Source: Pocillopora damicornis (Eukaryota). From it: a stretch of DNA of 64,000 nucleotides. A program made the translations under genes and the position numbers. Below are positions 5,695 through 63,980 of the stretch, piece by piece (within the stretch, counting starts at the first letter, position 1; each line of letters begins with the position of its first letter). The notes below the pieces were generated by a model that saw only the letters and a program-made list of their open reading frames with translations, did no database searches and had not been told where the DNA came from. The stretch is from NCBI RefSeq assembly GCF_003704095.1, contig NW_020845264.1, positions 992,001 through 1,056,000 of the forward strand, written 5' to 3'.

Positions 5695-6045
5695 CTGATT
5701 TCATCAACTCAGTCGATAACGTAAATTACCCACCGGAGAGAGTTTCCAAAGCTGACGTTTCCAGCGTTAGCCCTTCGTCAGAGCGAACGGAAGATTTTTT
5801 GTAGGTAGTGTCTGATTATATGCAGGAAAATGGAGCTACGCTGGGAACGTGGTAACTTGGTGTAACGTGTAATATTGTTGAGATGAATTTCCGAAAAAAA
5901 CCCTAGAACTAAAAAGTTTGTGCATTTAAACATTCACAACCAACAATTCCCCAGTTCGCTCTGACGAAGGGCAAGACGTCAGCCTTAGAAACTTTTTACG
6001 GTGGACAATTTACAGCAAAAACTCAGTTGATTAAACCAAGTTATC
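5695..6045. mobile_element. Penelope-like terminal-repeat remnant, inverted pair with hammerhead ribozyme motifs
   Basis: Minus strand 5784-5751 reads gctCTGACGAagggctaacgctgGAAACGTCagc; plus strand 5958-5983 is an internally deleted copy. The outer arms are reverse complements and match 20207-20403. Confidence 0.65.
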
Positions 6046-6366
6046 ATTGCGTGACACGCAGCCAGAGGCGGGTCTCGTTTAATCTTCTATCAGGCTACAA
6101 TACATTTGGAAGAAAATACAAAAGTTTGTTTTGTTTGTAAAACTAGTGTGGTCATTCCACTGAATGTGAATGTTTCAAAATTTATCCACCGTCACAATTG
6201 TCTAATTTCAAGCCTATTGTTGTCATAAAATTCCCACAAGCGCGTAACCAGGTAACTATTATTTGCGATGAATGCGTCAGAGCAATGCTGGTACATACGT
6301 AGTTATAACCTGCACAGTTTGAGAGGTTCCATGTTAAACTTTAATTGGTCGAAACAAGACAAAGAC

Positions 6367-6503: not shown

Positions 6504-10471
<3,968 letters not shown>

Positions 10472-12608: not shown

Positions 12609-15437
<2,829 letters not shown>

Positions 15438-16670: not shown

Positions 16671-17741
16671 TCACATCATGGTCTGGCTGTCACGATATTC
16701 CGTGGATTGGATTGGCATCCGCTGTATCGTGGGATTCTGAGTTTCCATCTCTTGCTTTCGGCACCTGCGGCACGAGCAGAACCCAAACCAATCTTTCCTA
16801 AAATTGGGTATGTAACAAGCAAAAATTAATGGATTGAAAAGTGAATTTACAAACTTCATCAGTTCCGTGATGATTGTAAGGACCAGAACAATATCGGGGT
16901 GCACTTCAGCCAGGACGTTAAAGGATCGAAGCATGGAGATGAATACAGAAGGGCCCCAACAGATGACCACGCCCATAGAAAGTGCGCTCAGCATGCGTGT
17001 GACTTTTCTCTTCGCGTTGGCAGTCTCCTTACTGATGGTACCATTTTTTACATCTTTCTTGAGATAAACGAACGTCACGACAAACAGGAAAACCATGACA
17101 ACCAGAGGAACAGTAAAAGCCAGCAGAAAATACAGGGTAGTAGAAAGCTGCCCGCTCCAATTCCGATACAAATCGCACAGTTTGGGAACGCTACAGTTTT
17201 TTAGCTCCTCTGTTAAATTTTGATCAGCCTCTGGTATCTGCGTATAGAGGATACTCTGTGCGCTGTACATTAACGGTCCACTACAGACAATAGCGTACAG
17301 CCAAACGACGAAAACCACAACAAAGGGCGTACGGCGTGACATGAGACCTTTTAAAGGGTATGCCGCGTCACGATATACATCAACAGAAATCACTAGAAGC
17401 GAAACAAAAAAAGCCGCACCACAAGCCGAGGAGAAGAAATGTAGTAGCTTGCATGGAATAGTCCCCTCCTCTACGCTAAATACTGTGCTCAAATATATCA
17501 AGGGTCCCACGGTTAACAACCGAAATATCAAATCTGCTACAGACAGATGAAATACAAAAAAGTTTGACAAGTTCTTTAGCACACACTTGTTTTTCAGCAT
17601 GACTCCGCAGACTGTAGCGTTGATAACGATTCCGATGAAAATCAGAAAGAAAACTGTTGCTTCAGATGCCTTGGCAATTTGTTTAGCCGTTACACACGTC
17701 ATCTTGAGGATGTCGGCTTTGTCATTTCCTAAAGTCTGCAT
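16671..17741 (-). CDS. Class A (rhodopsin-like) GPCR, peptide-receptor-like, atypical motifs
   Basis: 356-aa ORF with 7 hydrophobic segments, N1.50, LSVADL, TM3/ECL2 cysteines, CWGP and NSLFNP. DVY replaces DRY and NPLIF replaces NPxxY. Confidence 0.92.
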   Translation of the reverse strand: MQTLGNDKADILKMTCVTAKQIAKASEATVFFLIFIGIVINATVCGVMLKNKCVLKNLSNFFVFHLSVADLIFRLLTVGPLIYLSTVFSVEEGTIPCKLLHFFSSACGAAFFVSLLVISVDVYRDAAYPLKGLMSRRTPFVVVFVVWLYAIVCSGPLMYSAQSILYTQIPEADQNLTEELKNCSVPKLCDLYRNWSGQLSTTLYFLLAFTVPLVVMVFLFVVTFVYLKKDVKNGTISKETANAKRKVTRMLSALSMGVVICWGPSVFISMLRSFNVLAEVHPDIVLVLTIITELMKFVNSLFNPLIFACYIPNFRKDWFGFCSCRRCRKQEMETQNPTIQRMPIQSTEYRDSQTMM

Positions 17742-18792
17742 GGTGTCTGTCTTTCTTGGTTTTAGAGATATCTCAGTTTCCTTTTAACTTTTTCGCTGAA
17801 ACCGAAAAAAAAAAAAAAAAGAATAAGTAAGTATAAAACGGTGGTGCATATCAATTAAAAACAGGAGCCTATCGGGCTCTCAAGATTTTATGAAGGGCTT
17901 TGACCTTTCACTTACGAATAAATCGCGGTGGAAGCCGTCAACTTAATTTGATAGTTGCCTTAGAAAACCTTGCGAGACAAAAACTGTGTCAAACTTTTTA
18001 ATGTATTTCAAAGGTCTTATTTGTCGTTTCGAAATCATCTTCTGATTGGTTTAAAAGAATCTGGTGGTCCGAGGTTTTTCTCGTGACCTTGCATCTGTCA
18101 GTATGGTATTAAGATTATTTGACCATCATATCATGTAACGTTCACAAAAGTTCCCTCCACCATTCATTGTTGTTGCGAAGGAAGCAAGGTTCCATTAACC
18201 TTTCGGTTGCGCCACAGGCATGGCATGTTCTTGTTTATAAACGATTTCGTCTTGTTTACCTCTCTATCTTTGGTATAAGGACTTTCATGGAAAAAATGCA
18301 GAGGCCTGTACTCGACAACTACATCGAGTAATAGGTAATGCAAATAGTGATGGGCAATGAAACAATGTTTTTTTTCAATGATCAAGGTTTATGGGCTGTC
18401 GATAAATGGCCTGTTCGTTCGTGATATTTTTCTCATAATTCCTTGATGACGTTATGGAAGATGAGATAAATGATGTATTCCACGACTTCCGTCAAAGAAA
18501 ATCTAAGGTCGCCTAGACAGGAATTAATATACGCACTCAATCAGTTTTTAAACAACTCACTCAACTCAAACCTGTTTCCTCAAGGTACGTGCGCCAAAAG
18601 TGGACAGTCCCTTGAGAGGAACTTATAATACACGGGTTGAGCGAGTGGAGTTCGCTGAAGACTTTCGATAGACTGCTATTTACGGACGGTCAACCGAGCT
18701 CAGTTATTGCGAAACCGAGTGACATTACAGAAAGCGCAGCAATTTGACACCGTTTTGTGGTGGCTGTTAATTATGGCATATGATATCAGCAT

Positions 18793-19426: not shown

Positions 19427-20206
19427 TTTTTTTTCCAACACAGCACGCGACAGGCTGCTAAGGAACCGAGTTCGCGCGAGCAAAAATGCCGCAAAAAAAT
19501 AAAGCTCATGTGAACTGAATAACGGTTACCTTATTCGATATCTATGACATTTAAGTGAAAAAGAAAGCGGAGGTACATCACCTCCGTTCGAGTGTTTATC
19601 GTAAAAGAAACCCTTGTTGTCTCCCTAGAAAATATGAACCTTAAGAAAATGACGATGCTGTTTCGTAATTCGGTGACATTATTTCTTTGATAATATTGCA
19701 AACTACTTAATTTTATACTCAACTAAATTACTATAAATATTTCAACGACGTGTCAATTACAATTCAGCTGTAGTGGATTCAGCTGGGATGACAATACTGC
19801 AATATCCCTGCAGTGAACCACCTCGGGTAACATTTGCCCACGGAAGGCGAAGTTGAATGAAAACTTACAAGACACTGGGTTAGGTAAGCAGCATACGTAT
19901 TTTAAAAGCTGATATATTCCCATCTTTGTAAATCTTTCTCGTCTTCCTTACTATTCCCTCTTGATGCAGTCTTAAACGTATGGTCGATGTGGAATGCATA
20001 GCCCAGCAGTTTAAAATGGCTTATTATGATACTACAAAATAATTTTCCATTTCAAAAAATCTAAGTGTATCTATGGCTGTCAAGGAAGCCACTTCAACAC
20101 CTTTATGTAGCTTCTTAACAGTTTTAAAAAAGAAGCTCGCTTATCTTAGTTGTGTTTACCAGAAAGAAAAACTTCCTAAAAGTGGTATTGTGACTGTTCA
20201 GGTAGA

Positions 20207-20460
20207 AACAGGTAATTTAGTGTTAACAACTGAGTTGAAAACGTAAATTGACCACCGTAAAGAGTTAAAAGACTGACGTTTCGAGCGTTAGCCTTTCGTC
20301 AGAGCGACTGACAAAGGGCTAACGCTCGAAACGTCAGCCTTTTAACTCTTTACGGTGGTCAATTTACGTTTTCAACTCAGTTGTTAACACTAAATTACCT
20401 GTTATGCTCTCCCACCGACGCAGCACCACAGTTTTTTTAGATACTCACCCCCTTTGTTCA
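20207..20460. mobile_element. Penelope-like element remnant: near-perfect palindrome with two divergent minimal hammerhead ribozyme motifs, plus tail
   Basis: Arms 20207-20302 and 20308-20403 are near-perfect reverse complements. Cores are CTGACGAaaggctaacgctcGAAACGTC (minus) and CTGACAAagggctaacgctcGAAACGTC (plus). Tail ctcccaccgacgcagcaccacagttt is shared with 63091-63210 and 63799-63980. Confidence 0.75.
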
Positions 20461-21171
20461 GATAGAATACGTGCTTGGAGTAGGATGCAAGCTTATGGTC
20501 TCAAAGATAAGTTTGAACTTATTTCACAGATGAGATTGATTCAAAAGTATGCAAATGTGTATTGTTTATTCACAATAGTACATCGTGTGTTTCATATCTT
20601 TGTAACGTGGTTCGACCCAAAGGTGAGATATACTTAAAAGTAACCAAGTCTACAAATACCAGGTAGGCCTTTTCACAAACATTTTTGTAGATCTAGAAGG
20701 TAATGAAATGATCAGAAATTTTCATTTTCTACTCAAACAAATAAATTGTTTGGTCTGACTGTTAAAAGACGCTTTAATTTCACAGCAAAAGTAATAGATA
20801 TATTGAGAGGTTCTAAAAATAATTTTTTGTGATATTGGTCAAAATTTTTTTGCATTCTTTATAGGTATTCAGTCACTCTCGCGTGATATTTTTGGACAAG
20901 ACAAGAGATAAAGAAGGCTGAAACACTTAATTTTCATTTCTTTCGGGGCATCTGAGTTCCCTTTCGAAAGTGGGAACATCACAGTGTTAATGGGACAAAA
21001 TGCGATTAAATTTTCAGCGTAACCAATCAGTTCTAAAGATGATGTAGTTAACAAGGATATTCGAAGATCACTTTCACATTCAAGGATATTCGTATCCACC
21101 AATCTGAGTAATTTTCTGTCTAAAATAACATCCTTCTGCCACTATTTTCGTTAAAATCAGAGTCTGCATTG

Positions 21172-21555
21172 CGGCGTCAACAAAATCTGGATCGAACCGG
21201 ATCGGATCACGGATCACGGATCAAATGCTAAACCGCGTACAATCCGCAAACCGGAAGGAGCAGCAAAACCGAAAAACCGAAAAACAGCCAAAACTGCAAA
21301 ACCGAAAATCCCAATGCCTCCTTCCCGCTTGCCTTCATCCATGGCGGCACTGCACAACACTCCTCGATACAGCCGTGAAAGTGATTACATGGAGCCTTTT
21401 GGGCAAAAAAAACTTTCAAATGGGCCTACGCTCAATTATGTCAAGCAGTCTTTATTTTGGCTTGTCGCGTAAATTTTTTGAGTCCGATCCATGATCCGTG
21501 ATCCGATCCGTGATCCGTGATCCGGTGCGGTCCGATCCAGATTTTGTCGACACCG
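21172..21555. mobile_element. MITE with 23-bp TIRs and subterminal ggatc(a)c repeats
   Basis: cggcgtcaacaaaatctggatcg ... cgatccagattttgtcgacaccg; cggatca arrays on the left are mirrored by tgatccg arrays on the right. Confidence 0.8.
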
Positions 21556-21999
21556 TCCGCAACATATAAGAGAAATTGGATTTGCTAAATATCAAACTTA
21601 ACTGTAACAAAGTTACAGTCGATCAAAATGATAAAATCACTGTAACTGACTAAAATGACTAATTGAATATTGGCCGTAAAATTCCTCGCTATCTCGTCAA
21701 ACATTTGAGAATAATGCTCAAACTTGGTGGAAAGATGCGGATTCAAGTTAATAATTTGGCAGATAAGTTAATATGCAGTCTGCTGATGAAGTAATTTTCG
21801 TCGATGTGTGAACCTAGCACCTTCTACTACGGTCCTCCTAAAATAGAATCAAGGTTTTCAGTGCATTAGTTAAATAGAAACAGATGAAGAACAAAGGAAA
21901 CAAGATCTAGCTGTAAGGGTACTGAAACGTTATTTCACTCTCCTTTTCCCCTCAGTATTTGGAGCCAAAACTTCAGTTGAAGATCGACACGCATTCGCC

Positions 22000-24900
22000 A
22001 TGGGTTACGTGAAACAAAGAACGCCGCACCGAATGTATCTATTGGTTTTTATTTTAGCATTTGTATTTTCTCTATTTTCGGTTGTTTACGTTCATTACTA
22101 TACTTTGGTTGTGCCGCTGAAACGAGGAAGTCCATCATTTGTCATCAAACAAGATGTAGATGCCTCGCGCAGCTACACAAGTGCAGCCAGCAGTGCAAGT
22201 CTCATGCATTCCGTAGCAAACAAGAAGGAAAGTTTTCAGCGCAACACAGATGATCTATCATATTCAGGGAAATCCATTCCTCTGATGGACTTCAAGGACT
22301 TACAAAAGAGAAAAAAACGATTGCTTTTATTGGTTACTGTTGGCAGTGCACCACAAAGATTCGACAGGAGGCAGGCAATAAGAGATACATGGTGGAAATT
22401 TTGTTACGAGAAAAAGGTGAGACACGGTTAATTCACATACCATAAATAATCGATCAAACGCCGCCCTTAAATGAGCGCTTCACTTTAGAGGAAAAATGTA
22501 AAGGTTACGTCCCACCTTCAGAGGTTTAAAAAATCGATTTTTCTTTTATTTGACGAAACTGAATTCAAACATTTAATTTAATGTATCCATAAAATAGAAA
22601 TTATTGAAATCTTTTAAAGCACTTGAGTTATTTAAAAAAACGTATTTTCAGCTAAAAGTTTCAACTAAAAGTTTTCAACTAAAAATTTCAACTTAAAACC
22701 GGGCTCCATGAAAAAATAGTGGTACTTGTCGTAAATGAAAGCTAATCCAGGCTGATGATTGAAGAAAATAACTCCTACTTTAAGCCAAACTTAAATTAAA
22801 AATTGGTCCAGGCTTTCAAAATTCTAGTTTTGGTAAAGTCTTTGTATTCCGTTGTGAAAGCGACTGGTACTGGCGGGGCGGGCATAGGGTAAAATATGGA
22901 CTGGACTATTTTTTGGACCATTTTTTGGACCATTTTTTGGACCATTTTTTGGACCATTTTTTGGACCATTTTTTGGACCATTTTTTGGACTATTTTTTGG
23001 ACTATTTTTTTGGACAATTTTGAAGGGGGAGCACACCATTAGTACTGAGGAAGGGGTAGGATGAAGTCTATCAGTACTAAGGGAGGGGTGAGAGGTGGAG
23101 TGTTATTACTTAGGGAGGGGTGTGAGACGGACTATTTCTACGCAGGGAGGGATGGGAGGTGGTTGTAATAGGAAACACTGCTAGCTAATGGAGCTTTTAC
23201 TCGATCGTACAAACAATTTTAATTGGTTTTTCGACTGAGTTTTTGTATGTCAAAATTTTAGCGCTGGGCCGCGGCGTTTCTTAATATTTTGTCATGCGAA
23301 AGCGAAACTGCCACGTAAACACTGGACTTTAATTTGTATTGAAAATATCGCGTTTACGATCCTCCACTGTTGAATGATGCGTGCGCCTTTTAAGTCAACT
23401 TGTGCACCATCAGTTGCTTCAAATTTCCCTTTGTGTATACAGTATGTAATTACTAACTTTACTATCTTCCTTTTGTCATTGATCTTATCAAACGAGATCA
23501 CGGAATTTCCGGTCTTTAGCCCTTGACTTAGCAGCATTTAGAATTCACAAGCGCTATCGCAATTTTGAAGTTTATACCTTTACTATATAAAATCATGAGC
23601 GAACGATTTCGAAGAGGAATCCATGTTCTCGAATGGACCAAAAACACTGCTGTACTCTCAAAATGGGAAAGCGCAAATATCGATTTCATCTGTTTCGCAA
23701 ACAAAGGAGATAATCACCGACACCGGAAATCGCGACCAGATATTCCTCGCGACTCCCTTAGGTTTGTTTTCCAATTTGCCCAAGCCGCTGTCGATCAGTT
23801 CTTGCGTTAAAACCTATGAAACCTGCGAAGTGGAACTATGTTGGCTACTGTTGCTTGCCGATAATTTCCGTCGGCAAAACGTAGAAGTCCAGTGTTTCGT
23901 GGCAGTTTCGCTTCCGCATGACAAAAAAATGAAAAAACGCCGCGGCCAAGCGCTAAAATTTTAACATGCAAAATTCAGTAGAAAAACCAATTAAAATTGT
24001 TTGCGCGATCGAGTTAAAGCTCCATTAACCAGTAGTGTTTACCATTACAACCACCTCTCACCCTTCCCTGCGTAGTAATTGTCCGTCTCACACCCCTCCC
24101 TGAGTAATAACACTCCACCTCCTACCCCTCCCTTAGTACTGATAGACTTCATCCTACCCCTCCCTCAGTACTAATGGTGTGCCCCCCCTTCAAAATGGTC
24201 CAAAAAAAATAGTCCAAAAAATGGTCCAAAAAATGGTCCAAAAAATGGTCCAGTCCATATAGCTCCACGCTGGCGTCCAGATTTCGAACAAAGAAGTCGC
24301 TGTCATACCAAAATTTGCCATACACAATGTTAAAAACGAGGTTTTATTTTCTTCATGCAAGTACCAGCCTTGATACAAAAACATTAACAATCGCCTCGAA
24401 TCGTAATTTTGAAAGCTGCCTGTCGATTTGTTGTCTTGCACCTCAGCACATTTTCCGTTTTTTTCATTTATGCCGCGGATTTTCTCCTTTGTCTTTGGCA
24501 ACTTTGCTCATTGTTAAGTCGTCTTCTTCAACGCTCTACCGAGCGATCGAGATAAAAAAAACGTGTCTGCGAATGGTTACTTTTCGCGGGAAATCATGAT
24601 CCATCGTCATTAGCGCCAGGAGGTTCCGTTGTCCCATTGGTTTGCGGTTTCAGGAGGTGAGGTAATCTTCTGGTGTGGCGCGAGTTGTTTGCGAACATTC
24701 AAGGAATAATGACAAACGAAAGTGTGTCAGGGAATTTTGATATTTGAAATTGTTGATTGATGCCTTGTGAATAAGACTGTGCAGCCATTTTGCTCGTGCT
24801 GCGGCATCTGATACCCGATAAAGTCAATATTATATTATATTTCTATCGTAAACTACAGTCATTGAGCTTTCTTCTGATGTGTAGTTTGTTAGGATTTTAG

Positions 24901-26795
24901 TGAAAGTAGCGCGCGTACGAATTTTTTCTCGGACACCCGCGAAGGTGGGAAGTAACCTTAATAAACGCCGCCCTCGAATAAACGCCGCATCATCATGCGG
25001 CGTTTATTCGAATGATAGACTCAAAAAGCACACAACGACAATTGCTTCGATCGCAGTTGGAAATTTTGAGTAAACCAGACAAGTTCTCTTGAATGAACCA
25101 ATTCTGATGTCGAGCCAAGCAATCCGACATACGATCTTTATTCACTTTATATATTGCAATAGTATTAACATGCAAATGATGAAATTGAGAGCAATATGAA
25201 AAATGACTTTTTAGACAAACACAAAAACATGTTTTTTTTTCAAAAGTAAAATGGTCAGTTACCATACTACTGTTTGGATTTTAAATAAACGCAGCCCCTC
25301 GAGTAAACGCCGCATTCGAATCACGAAAAATTTAATAAACGCCGTGGCGCTTAATCGAATAAATACGGTTTTAAAATTTGGAATTGTTCCCAAAGACGAT
25401 AGACTCTGACAATGGACAGCAGTGTGTGTCCACCTGGTCCTATTGCCTCTTGCAGCCAAGGAGGGCTGGTCACTTAGAAACCTATATATGGCACCATATA
25501 TGGCAGTCGCTTTCACGCTTCCTTCGTTCCATTTCCATGTCCGCCTACCTCGTTAGCTAGTGTACGTACCATGCTTCAATGTTTCTATGTAGCTTTAAGG
25601 TTTATTTTCTCGGTAGAACCCTTCCAGTTAATCATGTAAAACTAGACTAGAACGGTATTCCTTAAATGAGAACACGCCATGAGTACAGTAAAACCCCTTC
25701 ACTTGATTCCGGTTACCTCGAACCCCCCGCACACTCTTTAATCGCGTTTGATACGAAGGCGATACCATTTATGGAAACGTAATACATTTCGCTTAACTTC
25801 CTAAGCTAAACATAGCTCCGACATAACAAAGTAAAAGTTCGAAAATGACTGTTGATTGTACAAGAATGGTAAAAACAGAATTCACACCAACCCCAATAAC
25901 TCGAATTTCCGCTAACTCGAACCACTTTTCGTTTCTTTTGTGGATTCGAGTTGGTGGGGTTCTACTCTACAATTAATTTAAGAGTGGAGACTCTGTCGCC
26001 TAATGTTGGCTGATTATTTCTCTTCAACAGGTCAAATGCGTCTTCTTTACAGACGGCATCATTAAGAACCAAACTCTCCTTACCCTTCTACTCCAGGAAA
26101 AAAACCGCTACAAAGATTTAGAGCTTCAACCGCTTCCATCTGGTGTTCAATTCGGGCAACGCTTTCTAAATTCCATCAAATGGGCCACGGCCAAATTTGA
26201 CTTTAAATATTTTCTCAAACTGGATGACGACTATTTTGTTTGTCTAAAAAGACTCCTATTTGAACTTCCTTCGCGACCGAAGCGCAATCTTGTATGGGGA
26301 AGTTTTCATTGTGAGTTTGGAATTTCTTGGGCAGACGAAGCATTCGTAATATTCTCTGCTGACATGATCCGCAAATTCTTGATGCAAGATAAGAAAAAGA
26401 TGCTCTGTCACCCATTTGCTGACCAACAGTTTAGTATTTGGATGAAACATATGACTAAGCTTTATTTTCATGACACAAGGCTTCACCATGACCCACCAGC
26501 TTCCTTTACGCCTGAATTTAAAGAAATGAAAAACCTATGTGACTCGTATATTGGAATACATGGTACATACGTAGAAGAGATGAGGAAGTTTGCGAAGGTT
26601 GCAAATGATGGCGCAAAAGAAGTAGAAACTTTCCCTAAATTTTCAAGATTCTGCCCATTCAAAAACTTTGATTATCGAAAGTTTTCACCTAAGTATTATT
26701 TTCGTCCTAAACCTTGTATACAGAATCCCACTTGGAAGAATTCTACATTTACTGGTCGTGAAGACGAACACATACTGCGTCAGGATGATCTATAA
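22000..26795 (+). CDS. GT31 family (beta-1,3-galactosyltransferase-like) glycosyltransferase, 393 aa
   Basis: Exons 22000-22416 and 26031-26795 (phase 0). Type II N-terminal TM, SAPQRFDRRQAIRDTW, CVFF, YKDL, FDFKYFLKLDDDYFV (DxD motif). Confidence 0.92.
22439..25369. mobile_element. Composite TIR element(s) filling the GT31 intron
   Basis: Left accataaataatcgatcaaacgccgc versus right end reverse complement accgtatttattcgattaagcgccac; further aataaacgccgc motifs at 24960-25013 and 25285-25345. Confidence 0.5.
22881..24260. mobile_element. Foldback-type element with long inverted arms and 12-bp tandem repeats
   Basis: About 10 copies of ttttttggac(c/t)a at 22903-23016 mirrored by tggtccaaaaaa at 24196-24251; arms 22894-23280 and 23935-24260 are reverse complements. 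Confidence 0.85.
25684..25969. mobile_element. Tc1/mariner-type MITE (TA-CAGT ends), degenerate
   Basis: tacagtaaaacccc ... ggggttctactcta with internal (t)aactcgaa motifs. Confidence 0.5.
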
Positions 26796-27899: not shown

Positions 27900-28110
27900 T
27901 TAACCCTTCAACTCTTAAGATCTGATTGTTAATTCTCCCCTCCAGCTGCTACACAGTTCCTTTTAAATTAGTTACGAGAATTTGATGTTAGATCGAGGTA
28001 ACAACTTCTGCCTGATAAGTATGAGTATTCGCATTTCCTGTTTGCTGAATAATGAAGGGATATTACAGGGAGAGGTTACATGTTGATCATTTCTGGGATT
28101 AAAAGTGTAA
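27900..28110 (-). mobile_element. TTAA-type (piggyBac-like) MITE
   Basis: ttaacccttcaactcttaagatctgattgttaattctccc is the reverse complement of the right end of 8984-9196. Confidence 0.7.
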
Positions 28111-28604
28111 ACTACATAACATCACAGAAAAATATAATACAGCGAGTTTGGTTAGACATCAATACAACCCCTTCCTGACTCCTCTGATTAACACTGAATG
28201 GAAATTTCTAGGAGAAGCTGAATATCAAAAAGTTGTATTAAAACAACATGCAAGCAACAGATCTCGAGATCGGCAAGAAGTAATGGAAACGCGTGTTTTT
28301 CTACCCTCAATAATAATTCGTGTAATTTTTAGGAAATAGGCAATAATACTTTTTAAGGAGGATGCCAAAAATTTCCTTGCAAAGTATCTTTGTATTCTGT
28401 ACACTGCTCTGATACTGTTCCTTCTTCCAGCTTACTTGTCAGAGACATTATTCACATCTACTTGCAAAACTTTATTCTTCATGCGCCTGACCCCAGACTC
28501 CTCTCAAATTTGTGCGCCTGCCACTATTTTAGATTTTACCCTTTCACGCACGTGAAACAGTTGGGTCGCAATTCGTCGTATTTTGTAATTTTCTTTGTTG
28601 TAAA

Positions 28605-42909: not shown

Positions 42910-43110
42910 TTAACCCTTTGACATCCAGAAGTGACTAACACATAACTTCTCCCTAGGATATCAATTCATTATCCCGCAAACAGGTAATAATTTACTCAAA
43001 CTTGTCAGGTACAAGTTGTTATCTTGATCTGTAACCAAATTCTTCTGACTAATTTGCATGGAAATGTTTAGCAGCTAGAGGGGAGAATTTACAATCAGAT
43101 CATGGGTTGA
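42910..43110 (+). mobile_element. TTAA-type (piggyBac-like) MITE
   Basis: ttaaccctttgacatccagaagtgac...gggagaatttacaatcagatc; homologous to 8984-9196. Confidence 0.7.
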
Positions 43111-62666: not shown

Positions 62667-63090
62667 ACCAGTATTCTATGGCAGTCAATTATAGACAAAA
62701 TTCGATAATGAATTACCACTCCTTGCTTGATCAAACGCAATCAATATGTAGTCGCCTGGTTCCCAAGCAACACCGAAGCATGTTTGCAACCGAGAGAAGC
62801 TGGGAATAGCAGCTGGGGCCTGGGCATACAAAGTTTTTTGTTTTTAGTTTTTCGAGTGGGAAAAGGTTTTTTTTTTTCCTGTCATGAAAAAGGGATAGAG
62901 AATGGAAGGAGGTTGTATGTAGAGGGACTTCTTTTTATCGGAGACCCGACGTTGCCCTAATAATGGGCAGAGAAGCAACTATGGACATTGCAAGGGCAGT
63001 CATAGCTTTTGAACTTGATTCAAAATTAAAGCTCCCCCTTTTTTCTCCCTCTTGGAGAAATTTAAGTACGCGATGAAAATTAGTTATACA

Positions 63091-63210
63091 ACTTTAGAAA
63101 GTGCTAACGGTGGCCCATGAAATTATCAACTTAGTCGTTAAAACTAAATTATCATTTAATAGCCCTAACCGACGTAGCACCACAGTTTCTTTAGAAACTT
63201 ACCCTCTTCA
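63091..63210 (+). mobile_element. Penelope-like family arm and tail fragment
   Basis: acggtgg...tatcaact...actaaattat...accgacgtagcaccacagtttctttagaaacttaccc matches 20350-20455. Confidence 0.6.
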
Positions 63211-63798: not shown

Positions 63799-63980
63799 AG
63801 GTAATTTGTTATTATAACTGGGTTTAAAACGTAAGTTGGTCACCGGTTAGAGTTTCATAGCTTTAAAACTCTTAACGGTGGTTAATTTACGTTATCAACT
63901 CAATTCATAATACTAAATTATCTTGTTACACTCTCCCACCGACGCAGCGTCGCATTTTCTTTACAAACTTACCCCCTTTA
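63799..63980. mobile_element. Penelope-like family inverted pair lacking the hammerhead core
   Basis: Left arm aggtaattt...caccg, right arm cggtggttaatttacgttatcaactc...aaattatctt, then tail ctcccaccgacgcagc...aaacttaccccctt. Confidence 0.6.

What the first reader, a model, noticed from the sequence alone, without database searches (positions are those of the whole stretch)
20195..20467. Palindromic element with back-to-back minimal hammerhead ribozymes on both strands
Seen: about 96-bp arms form a near-perfect hairpin whose centre holds one hammerhead-like motif per strand. The family consensus from copies at 5751, 5958, 13749, 20272 and 20308 is GCU-CUGACGA-A-GGGC-UAAC-GCUC-GAAA-CG-UC-AGC: core CUGANGA, 4-bp stem II, GAAA, a self-complementary ACGU in place of stem III, a GUC cleavage triplet and a GCU/AGC stem I. 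A 12/13 direct repeat flanks the element (tgttcaggtagaa 20195, tgttcagatagaa 20455). Established: Penelope-like retroelements carry minimal hammerheads thought to cleave as dimers and leave inverted terminal-repeat remnants. Caveat: every copy here has at least one defect (G8 to A on the plus copy, a stem II mismatch on the minus copy). Five loci in 64 kb imply a very abundant family that could yield self-cleaving or dsRNA-forming RNA from either strand.
Basis: partly seen in the sequence, partly recalled or inferred. Interest (0 to 1): 0.7.

Follow-up and report, generated by a model that had tools for sequence, protein, structure and literature searches.

The report
Penelope mirror insert marks RNA start
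This 250-base mirror-image sequence in a coral genome is a damaged stump of a very common Penelope-type jumping gene, likely made when both cut DNA strands copied the same RNA up to its predicted start; its two hammerhead-ribozyme-like motifs are mutated passengers, not a two-way ribozyme device.

Summary
Hairpin, motifs and 13-bp flanking repeat are real. The element (20208-20454) is a head-to-head pair of pLTR fragments of an endonuclease-bearing Penelope-like element (RT + Zn-finger + GIY-YIG; Neptune-type motifs), with a 51-nt tail on one side and a target-site duplication; the genome holds at least 1,184 arms and 202 such palindromes. Inserts end at two fixed 3' sites (+95-107, +148-164) and hit a sharp 5' wall 31 nt below a TATA box, just before the hammerhead. 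Both mirror forms of the central junction occur, and both arms carry the same subfamily letters (266 of 276 sites), so two cDNAs, one per target strand, likely copied one uncleaved sense RNA to its predicted start. The hammerhead is conserved across subfamilies, but here the minus copy has lost G10.1-C11.1 and the plus copy is cut inside the core. A minority of palindromes stop at the predicted cut site, a hint of cleavage in vivo that microhomology can also explain. Architecture and motif are published; this scan has noted the same structure in other genomes. New member of a known kind, useful for an open mechanistic question.

The parts
20195..20207 (+). Left copy of the 13-bp target-site duplication
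   Evidence: family TSDs 13-16 bp in 37 of 46
20208..20309 (-). Inverted arm: pLTR fragment from family position about +102 back to +1 (+1 = 20309); keeps the RNA's predicted 5' end; outer end at the first (inner) RT start site
20272..20305 (-). Minimal hammerhead, complete in length; G10.1>A at 20294 breaks the G10.1-C11.1 pair; stem I ends in a G-U pair; predicted cut between 20275 and 20274
20303..20310 (.). Central head-to-head junction: inverted arm reaches +1, tail arm starts at +9; commonest junction class of the family
20309..20338 (+). 5'-truncated hammerhead (+9 to +38): no 5' strand of stem I, G8>A at 20313; predicted cut site 20335/20336
20309..20403 (+). Direct arm, pLTR +9 to +103
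20404..20454 (+). One-sided 51-nt tail between the two inferred RT start sites; both sites lie just 3' of a TTACC motif
   Evidence: 0 of 60 palindromes have two tails
20455..20467 (+). Right copy of the target-site duplication (12 of 13 identical)
5705..6046 (.). Older head-to-head pair of the same family whose arms run upstream of +1 (to about -51 and -39); motifs at 5781(-) and 5961(+), the latter with a deletion
13688..13886 (.). Older decayed palindrome of the family, in an intron of the second alpha-tubulin gene; motif at 13779(-)
63090..63208 (+). Solo arm plus tail of the family, no hammerhead
63799..63978 (.). Tailed palindrome whose centre is AGCT, the predicted cut site; short TSD visible; no hammerhead left

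Best explanation
The element is a non-coding, mutated insertion of two head-to-head fragments of a Penelope-like retrotransposon's terminal repeat with a one-sided tail and a 13-bp target duplication, likely built when the element's protein cut both target strands and each end primed its own cDNA on one uncleaved sense RNA, running to the RNA's predicted 5' end. Shown by sequence: family identity, link to an RT + GIY-YIG ORF, TSDs, two fixed 3' ends, a sharp 5' wall at -2..+5, a TATA box at -31 and CCAAT at -57 above that wall, both mirror junction forms, matching arms. Inferred: (1) the two 3' ends are internal RT start sites, as measured in vitro for anole Poseidon; (2) staggered cuts 13-16 bp apart, with 1-4 nt of pairing between primer and RNA; (3) the wall is the Pol II start site of the pLTR promoter, so any copy keeping -60..+160 would supply template in trans; (4) the two cDNA ends join through 1-3 nt microhomology, which usually trims one arm into the hammerhead core; (5) the hammerhead is under selection in the source elements, probably cleaves only with the element's protein or as a dimer, and is not needed for insertion; it may cut a few per cent of templates in vivo. 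This copy is most likely inert.
For: Upstream of +1, longer copies carry the C-terminus of a GIY-YIG PLE protein; 29 of 30 such copies end at the same two 3' sites while their 5' ends vary across the ORF, which fixes the direction of synthesis. First 100 of 1,184 arms: 3' ends 49 at +95-107, 36 at +148-164, 15 other; 5' ends (97 not bounded by N) 41 at -2..+5, 26 at +6..+17, 9 beyond -2; stop rate 0.10 per nt at the wall vs 0.007 at +18..+48 and 0.012 at -30..-3. TATAWA at -31 in 44 of 69 upstream-bearing copies, CCAAT at -57 in 36 of 69; no AG or GT at the wall. 60 tailed palindromes: inverted arm keeps the 5' end in 25, tail arm in 18, both in 13, neither in 4; none has two tails. Arms agree at 266 of 276 subfamily sites vs 180 expected (max 208 of 500 shuffles); private changes 47 in one arm vs 3 in both. 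TSD in 46 of 52; overlap with the inverted arm >=2 nt in 40 of 46. PMC11167929 (main text read): protein nicks and extends both strands, two internal starts define the tail, hammerhead mutants still insert.
Against: No RNA end data: all 24 runs are contigs, so the start site is inferred from DNA only. I could not link the tail to the ORF start and found no intact ORF, so it is not shown that the +1 RNA is the mRNA. Promoter motifs come from copies of one family and are not independent; D. virilis Penelope's promoter is TATA-less (PMC2377424, passages). Five of the 18 solo arms at the wall are local duplicates on one contig (L211-L215). The 60 palindromes are pooled from searches biased to young copies and to given junctions, so the 25:18 ratio is not a genome estimate. 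PMC11167929 reports initiation without homology to the target, whereas junction overlaps here suggest 1-4 nt of pairing. The tail (about 50-58 nt) is longer than the published 30-40 bp.
Confidence: 0.75

Rival explanations
1. Self-priming or fold-back: one cDNA (or an antisense RNA, as proposed for rotifer Penelope) folds back at the centre and copies itself to make the second arm.
For: PMC3846280 Discussion (read) proposes self-priming on an antisense template for head-to-head palindromes. Arms match within a locus, which fold-back also predicts. Both outer ends read as splice-donor-like AG/GG|GTAA on the antisense strand.
Against: Fold-back of the tail-primed cDNA can only give junctions where the tail arm keeps the 5' end; 25 of 60 have the mirror form. 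Solo copies also end at +95-107, so that site is a start, not a stop. Long copies are fixed at the tail end and variable in the ORF, the polarity of a sense template.
Confidence: 0.1
2. Same two-primer insertion, but the wall at +1 is not a transcription start: it reflects truncated master copies, an RNA processing site or an RT stop.
For: No RNA 5'-end data. Link between +1 and the ORF not found.
Against: Several subfamilies share the wall; TATA sits at the canonical distance (canonical -31/-30 is recalled knowledge); no splice signal; the predicted hairpin ends at +8, seven bases short of the wall; solo copies do not share 5' flanks apart from local duplicates.
Confidence: 0.1
3. The palindrome is itself the mobile unit (a MITE-, SINE- or retrozyme-like element) whose two hammerheads process RNA from either strand.
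For: Recurrent identical centres in many copies; the short unit is abundant in RNA-library contigs of four studies.
Against: Centres vary and come in mirror forms; 40 of 100 arms have no inverted partner; one arm is usually cut in the core; no head-to-tail tandem of the unit in the window or among the loci read; TSDs of 13-16 bp and a one-sided tail do not fit a MITE; RNA contigs run into unlike flanks, as embedded copies would.
Confidence: 0.04

Closest known systems
EN+ Penelope-like element insertions with inverted 5'-truncated pLTR, one-sided tail and TSD (Pen2a_Av, PMC3846280; fig. 2 legend of PMC8557442)
   Same: Head-to-head inverted copy, tail at one end only, TSD, hammerhead in the pLTR.
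   Different: Miniature (250 bp, no ORF), hundreds to thousands of copies, TSD 13-16 bp rather than 8-10, tail about 50-58 nt rather than 30-40, and a fixed central breakpoint under a TATA box.
Poseidon of Anolis carolinensis in vitro (PMC11167929)
   Same: Two internal RT starts bounding the tail, both strands extended, uncleaved RNA the main template.
   Different: Other clade by motif (CX4CxxC linker here); no ATG in the hammerhead; short primer-template overlaps seen here; genomic rather than biochemical evidence.
Minimal hammerheads of metazoan PLEs (PMC4209133; about 4,500 non-canonical motifs in Acropora millepora, PMC7229834)
   Same: Core CUGANGA / GAAA / UH, extra base before stem II, G10.1-C11.1, palindromic ACGU instead of stem III; opposite-strand pairs 100-700 bp apart were already noted in Schistosoma.
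   Different: Stem II 4 bp and stem I 3 bp (shorter than in Schistosoma); pairs here are 5-40 bp apart and usually one is cut in the core.
Animal non-LTR retrozymes (PMC7229834; bioRxiv 10.64898/2026.07.22.740005)
   Same: Short, non-coding, hammerhead-bearing, PLE-related, large TSDs, present in corals.
   Different: Retrozymes are head-to-tail tandems with canonical type I ribozymes and circular RNAs; this is head-to-head with a minimal motif.
L1 twin priming (recalled, not read here)
   Same: Both target strands prime cDNA; 5' inversion inside one TSD; microhomology at the inner junction.
   Different: In L1 the inverted part is a different stretch of the RNA; here both primers copy the same stretch, giving a palindrome.

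Membership tests
EN+ Penelope-like element | Repeat linked to an ORF with PLE RT and C-terminal GIY-YIG endonuclease | tested here: met
   ORF end lies about 100 nt upstream of +1 in 30 loci, 82-97% identical to P0086; RVT_1 and GIY-YIG by Pfam in P0050, P0086, P0156
EN+ Penelope-like element | Inverted 5'-truncated copy adjacent head-to-head | tested here: met
   also beside ORF-bearing copies such as L088, L093, L338
EN+ Penelope-like element | Optional tail at one end only | tested here: met
   0 of 60 palindromes with two tails; bimodal 3' ends
EN+ Penelope-like element | Target-site duplication | tested here: met
   46 of 52 vs 7 of 1024 null
EN+ Penelope-like element | Partial tandem pLTR-ORF-pLTR source copy | tested here: inconclusive
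   none found in 12 fetched regions or the 5'-end searches; assembly is fragmented
Neptune (or Nematis) clade | CX2-5CxxC linker, DKG motif, two cysteines inside GIY-YIG | tested here: met
   read in P0131, P0156, P0050; definition from PMC8557442 passages
Neptune (or Nematis) clade | Placement in an RT tree | not tested
   no reference sequences in hand
Minimal hammerhead (family majority) | Core, extra base before stem II, G10.1-C11.1, palindromic 15.2-16.2, stems I and II | tested here: met
   1,539 core matches vs 5 for the reversed pattern; three other families keep the core with different stems that still pair
Minimal hammerhead (the two copies at 20.3 kb) | Intact core and G10.1-C11.1 and stem I | tested here: not met
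   minus copy G10.1>A; plus copy G8>A and no stem I 5' strand
Minimal hammerhead (family majority) | Self-cleavage as dimer or with protein | not testable with these tools
   only indirect genomic hints
Non-LTR retrozyme | Head-to-tail tandem units with canonical type I hammerhead | tested here: not met
   head-to-head or solo, no stem III; no Rfam hit
Non-LTR retrozyme | Circular RNA | not testable with these tools
   contigs only
MITE | Inverted repeats at both termini, fixed ends, short fixed TSD | tested here: not met
   one-sided tail, solo copies, TSD 9-18 bp

The most novel reading that the evidence does not exclude
These mini-palindromes are a genome-wide fossil record of Penelope RNA ends: most mark a TATA-driven start site five bases before the hammerhead, and a minority mark the ribozyme's own cut, including a young, TSD-flanked copy (G000:C708:87166) whose two arms both begin exactly at the scissile bond with no microhomology; that would be evidence that a minimal Penelope hammerhead cleaves in vivo and that the 5'-OH product is still retrotransposed by two-strand priming.
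Probability: 0.35. Interest if true: 0.65.

Novelty: new member of a known kind. Interest (0 to 1): 0.4.

Why it matters
How Penelope elements build their inverted ends, which strand is the template, and whether their minimal hammerheads cut in cells are stated as open in PMC3846280, PMC8557442 and PMC11167929. A family with hundreds of short, young, TSD-flanked palindromes gives base-level predictions (start site, two RT starts, cut spacing, junction forms) that one CAGE run and one in vitro assay can test. For coral genomics it also flags thousands of near-perfect hairpins that would form dsRNA when read through. The single locus itself is probably an inert passenger.

Tried and rejected
Rfam scan of the window: 3 weak unrelated matches, no hammerhead. 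Cleavage-site excess in solo copies: 4 of 32 at +36 vs 7-9% in a simulated null, not significant; in inverted copies 10 of 36 at +36 but 8 of 36 at +32, a microhomology site with no cut (99 of 139 matches examined); 2 of 97 in the unbiased sample. A second 5' wall near the ORF start, suggested, was rejected when run contigs showed the element continuing upstream. Splice acceptor at the wall: no AG. Cap-copy G at solo 5' junctions: seen by eye in a few loci (L043, L143, L208), not counted, not claimed. Arms from two different subfamilies: 0 of 46 palindromes; 9 loci differ at 1-2 sites only. A-to-G excess among changes shared by both arms: 2 of 14, none. Gene conversion between arms as the cause of their match: private changes are mostly one-armed, 47 vs 3. 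Intact source ORF and tail-to-ORF link: not found. RNA runs: 23 of 24 hold the stretch, 14 on record as RNA, all contigs, so no strand, end or level can be read. Sequence look-up in earlier scan findings gave nothing. No fold or complex prediction was run, as the finding is non-coding. Literature searches gave no paper on this family, on twin priming in Penelope elements, or on insertion ends mapping a PLE start site; the library lacks most subscription papers and Repbase. Supplements were not opened: fig. S3 of PMC4209133 and fig. S1 of PMC7229834 list cnidarian minimal-hammerhead families and may already show this motif.

Full report
Observation. The hairpin is real: arms 20207-20302 and 20308-20403, 93 of 96 bases complementary, folding at -164.3 kcal/mol with none of 200 shuffles close. 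The direct repeat at 20195-20207 and 20455-20467 is there. A 51-nt stretch (20404-20454) lies between the right arm and the right repeat, so the insert is asymmetric. Positions below use a family numbering in which +1 is the first A of C[C/T]AATCGC, the hammerhead core runs from +8 to +35 and the predicted cut is +35/+36.

The two motifs. The minus-strand copy spans the whole motif but has G10.1>A (20294). The plus-strand copy begins at +9: it lacks the 5' strand of stem I, its apparent C3 is a substitution in the other arm's sequence, and it has G8>A. Neither passes as an intact minimal hammerhead. Rfam finds no hammerhead in the window.

The family. The window lies in G000 (234 Mb); protein homologues named Pocillopora meandrina at 91-94% identity point to a stony coral. 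The genome has 1,184 exact matches to a 22-nt arm pattern, 202 head-to-head palindromes with two exact 12-mers, 124 perfect 39-nt motif copies and 1,539 minimal-hammerhead cores against 5 for the reversed pattern. These are lower bounds.

It is a Penelope-like element. Six of 30 loci continue upstream into a shared sequence that encodes the end of a GIY-YIG endonuclease. Thirty further loci carry up to most of an RT + endonuclease ORF, 82-97% identical to P0086 in the endonuclease part; Pfam gives RVT_1 and GIY-YIG. Full-length homologues have DKG, a CX4CxxC linker and two cysteines inside GIY-YIG, the Neptune/Nematis pattern of PMC8557442 (passages); no tree was built. No intact ORF was found.

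Ends. I took the first 100 of the 1,184 arms in contig order. Their 3' ends are bimodal: 49 at +95-107, 36 at +148-164, 15 elsewhere. Of 30 ORF-bearing copies, 29 end at the same two sites (11 and 18; one is masked) while their 5' ends scatter over the ORF. Synthesis therefore starts at these sites and runs upstream on a sense template. This matches PMC11167929 (main text read), where purified Poseidon protein nicks and extends both target strands and starts at two internal sites that bound the tail. Both sites here follow a TTACC motif.

The wall. Of 97 arms not bounded by N, 41 end at -2..+5, 26 at +6..+17 and only 9 pass -2; the stop rate is 0.10 per base at the wall against 0.007 at +18..+48 and 0.012 just upstream. 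Eighteen of the 41 are solo copies, five of them local duplicates. Copies that extend upstream have TATAWA at -31 (44 of 69) and CCAAT at -57 (36 of 69), with no splice signal at the wall. I read +1 as the Pol II start of the pLTR promoter (inferred; the canonical TATA distance is recalled). Against this: no RNA ends could be read, the link from tail to ORF start was not found, and D. virilis Penelope has a TATA-less internal promoter (PMC2377424, passages), although a rotifer pLTR has a TATA plus Inr-like motif (PMC3846280, passage).

Two cDNAs, one template. Among 60 distinct tailed palindromes pooled from all fetched loci (not an unbiased set), none has two tails; the inverted arm keeps the 5' end in 25, the tail arm in 18, both in 13, neither in 4. 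Fold-back of a single tail-primed cDNA cannot give the first class, which includes the focal copy. In 46 gap-free palindromes the arms agree at 266 of 276 subfamily sites (random pairing 180, maximum 208 in 500 shuffles), while private changes are one-armed 47 times and two-armed 3 times; no locus pairs two subfamily haplotypes. So both arms likely came from one RNA or one source locus and then decayed apart. TSDs were found in 46 of 52 scorable loci (8 of 60 lacked the end motifs), 37 of them 13-16 bp, against 7 of 1024 mismatched pairs; the TSD overlaps the inverted arm by 2 nt or more in 40 of 46.

Is the hammerhead functional? In 61 arms covering it, +8..+38 has no subfamily-level variant site (0 of 31) against 12 of 40 downstream (Fisher p 0.0007; arms were selected for aligning through the motif and the threshold was set after viewing the table). 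Three other families in the genome keep the core with different, still pairing stems. That supports selection on the fold in source elements. But the monomer prefers an inactive hairpin (-12.3 vs -7.0 kcal/mol), and most inserts contain the whole motif, so their template was uncut, as in PMC11167929. Hints of cutting: of 20 non-duplicate short-centre palindromes (21 loci, read by eye), 15 have an arm ending at +36-38; symmetric centres are AGCT 8, ACGT 1, TCGA 1 (p 0.003); L327 is a young, TSD-flanked copy with both arms starting exactly at +36 without microhomology, and L240 and L331 are similar. Against: solo copies show no significant excess (4 of 32 vs 7-9%), the non-cut microhomology site +32 is nearly as common as +36 in inverted copies (8 vs 10 of 36), and only 2 of 97 unbiased arms end there. 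I put in vivo cleavage of a minority of templates at about one in three.

Comparison with what is known. Minimal hammerheads in PLE pLTRs, cnidarians included, and opposite-strand pairs are in PMC4209133 (parts 1-2 of 4 read); more than 6,000 motifs in Acropora millepora in PMC7229834 (passages); the inverted copy, tail and TSD in PMC3846280 (passages and Discussion) and PMC8557442 (passages). The element fails the retrozyme test (head-to-tail tandem, canonical ribozyme; bioRxiv 10.64898/2026.07.22.740005, part 1 of 5 read) and the MITE test. My searches found no paper that describes this family or uses such inserts to map a start site; supplements and Repbase were not seen. After I had recorded my reading, one search showed unchecked notes of this scan with the same reading in other genomes; I tested two of their claims here and found no two-RNA palindromes and no A-to-G excess.

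Verdict. A real, abundant, mechanistically informative footprint of a known kind of retrotransposon, not a new bidirectional ribozyme element. Penelope remnant: about 0.97. Two-strand priming on an uncut sense RNA up to its start site: about 0.75. Interest 0.4.

Noticed in passing
G000 (one search list); L222-L227, L136: At least three other minimal-hammerhead families with different stems I and II; in L136 two direct copies of one lie 3.7 kb apart, a candidate pLTR pair of another Penelope-like element with a fragment of this family inserted between them.
   Followed up: partly
window 20397-20403 and 20445-20454: Both inferred RT start sites follow the same TTACC motif; on the other strand each reads as a splice-donor-like GGTAA[G/T]T, so antisense intronic inserts could supply cryptic donors.
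   Followed up: no
L035/L068/L179 (C203), L219 (C352), L104: Short 18-20-nt tandem arrays made of the hammerhead's first half sit at the centre of some palindromes, suggesting repeated template jumps at the RNA's 5' end.
   Followed up: no
L244, L284, L308, L172, L174: Copies with the promoter or +1 intact but most of the hammerhead deleted internally, some between the short repeats of stem I.
   Followed up: no
window 6727-10471 and 12838-15437: Two tandem alpha-tubulin genes 90-98% identical in exons; only the second has the family's decayed palindrome in an intron.
   Followed up: partly
window 22894-24260: 1.4-kb inverted-repeat element with arms of 12-nt and 32-nt tandem repeats, MITE- or foldback-like.
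   Followed up: no
window 21172-21555: MITE-like element with 51-nt terminal inverted repeats (90% complementary).
   Followed up: no
window 8984-9196, 27900-28111, 42910-43101, and 34743/44524: Further dispersed repeat families of 70-210 nt in both orientations.
   Followed up: no
window 16671-17783(-), 21874-22431(+), 26004-26795(+): The focal insert lies between a rhodopsin-family GPCR ORF and the first coding exon of a likely galactosyltransferase (weak Pfam hit on the later exon), about 1.4 kb upstream of the latter.
   Followed up: partly
L133 (C1863:13000-21500): Complex insertion with four pLTR pieces and ORF fragments in nested inverted orientation.
   Followed up: no
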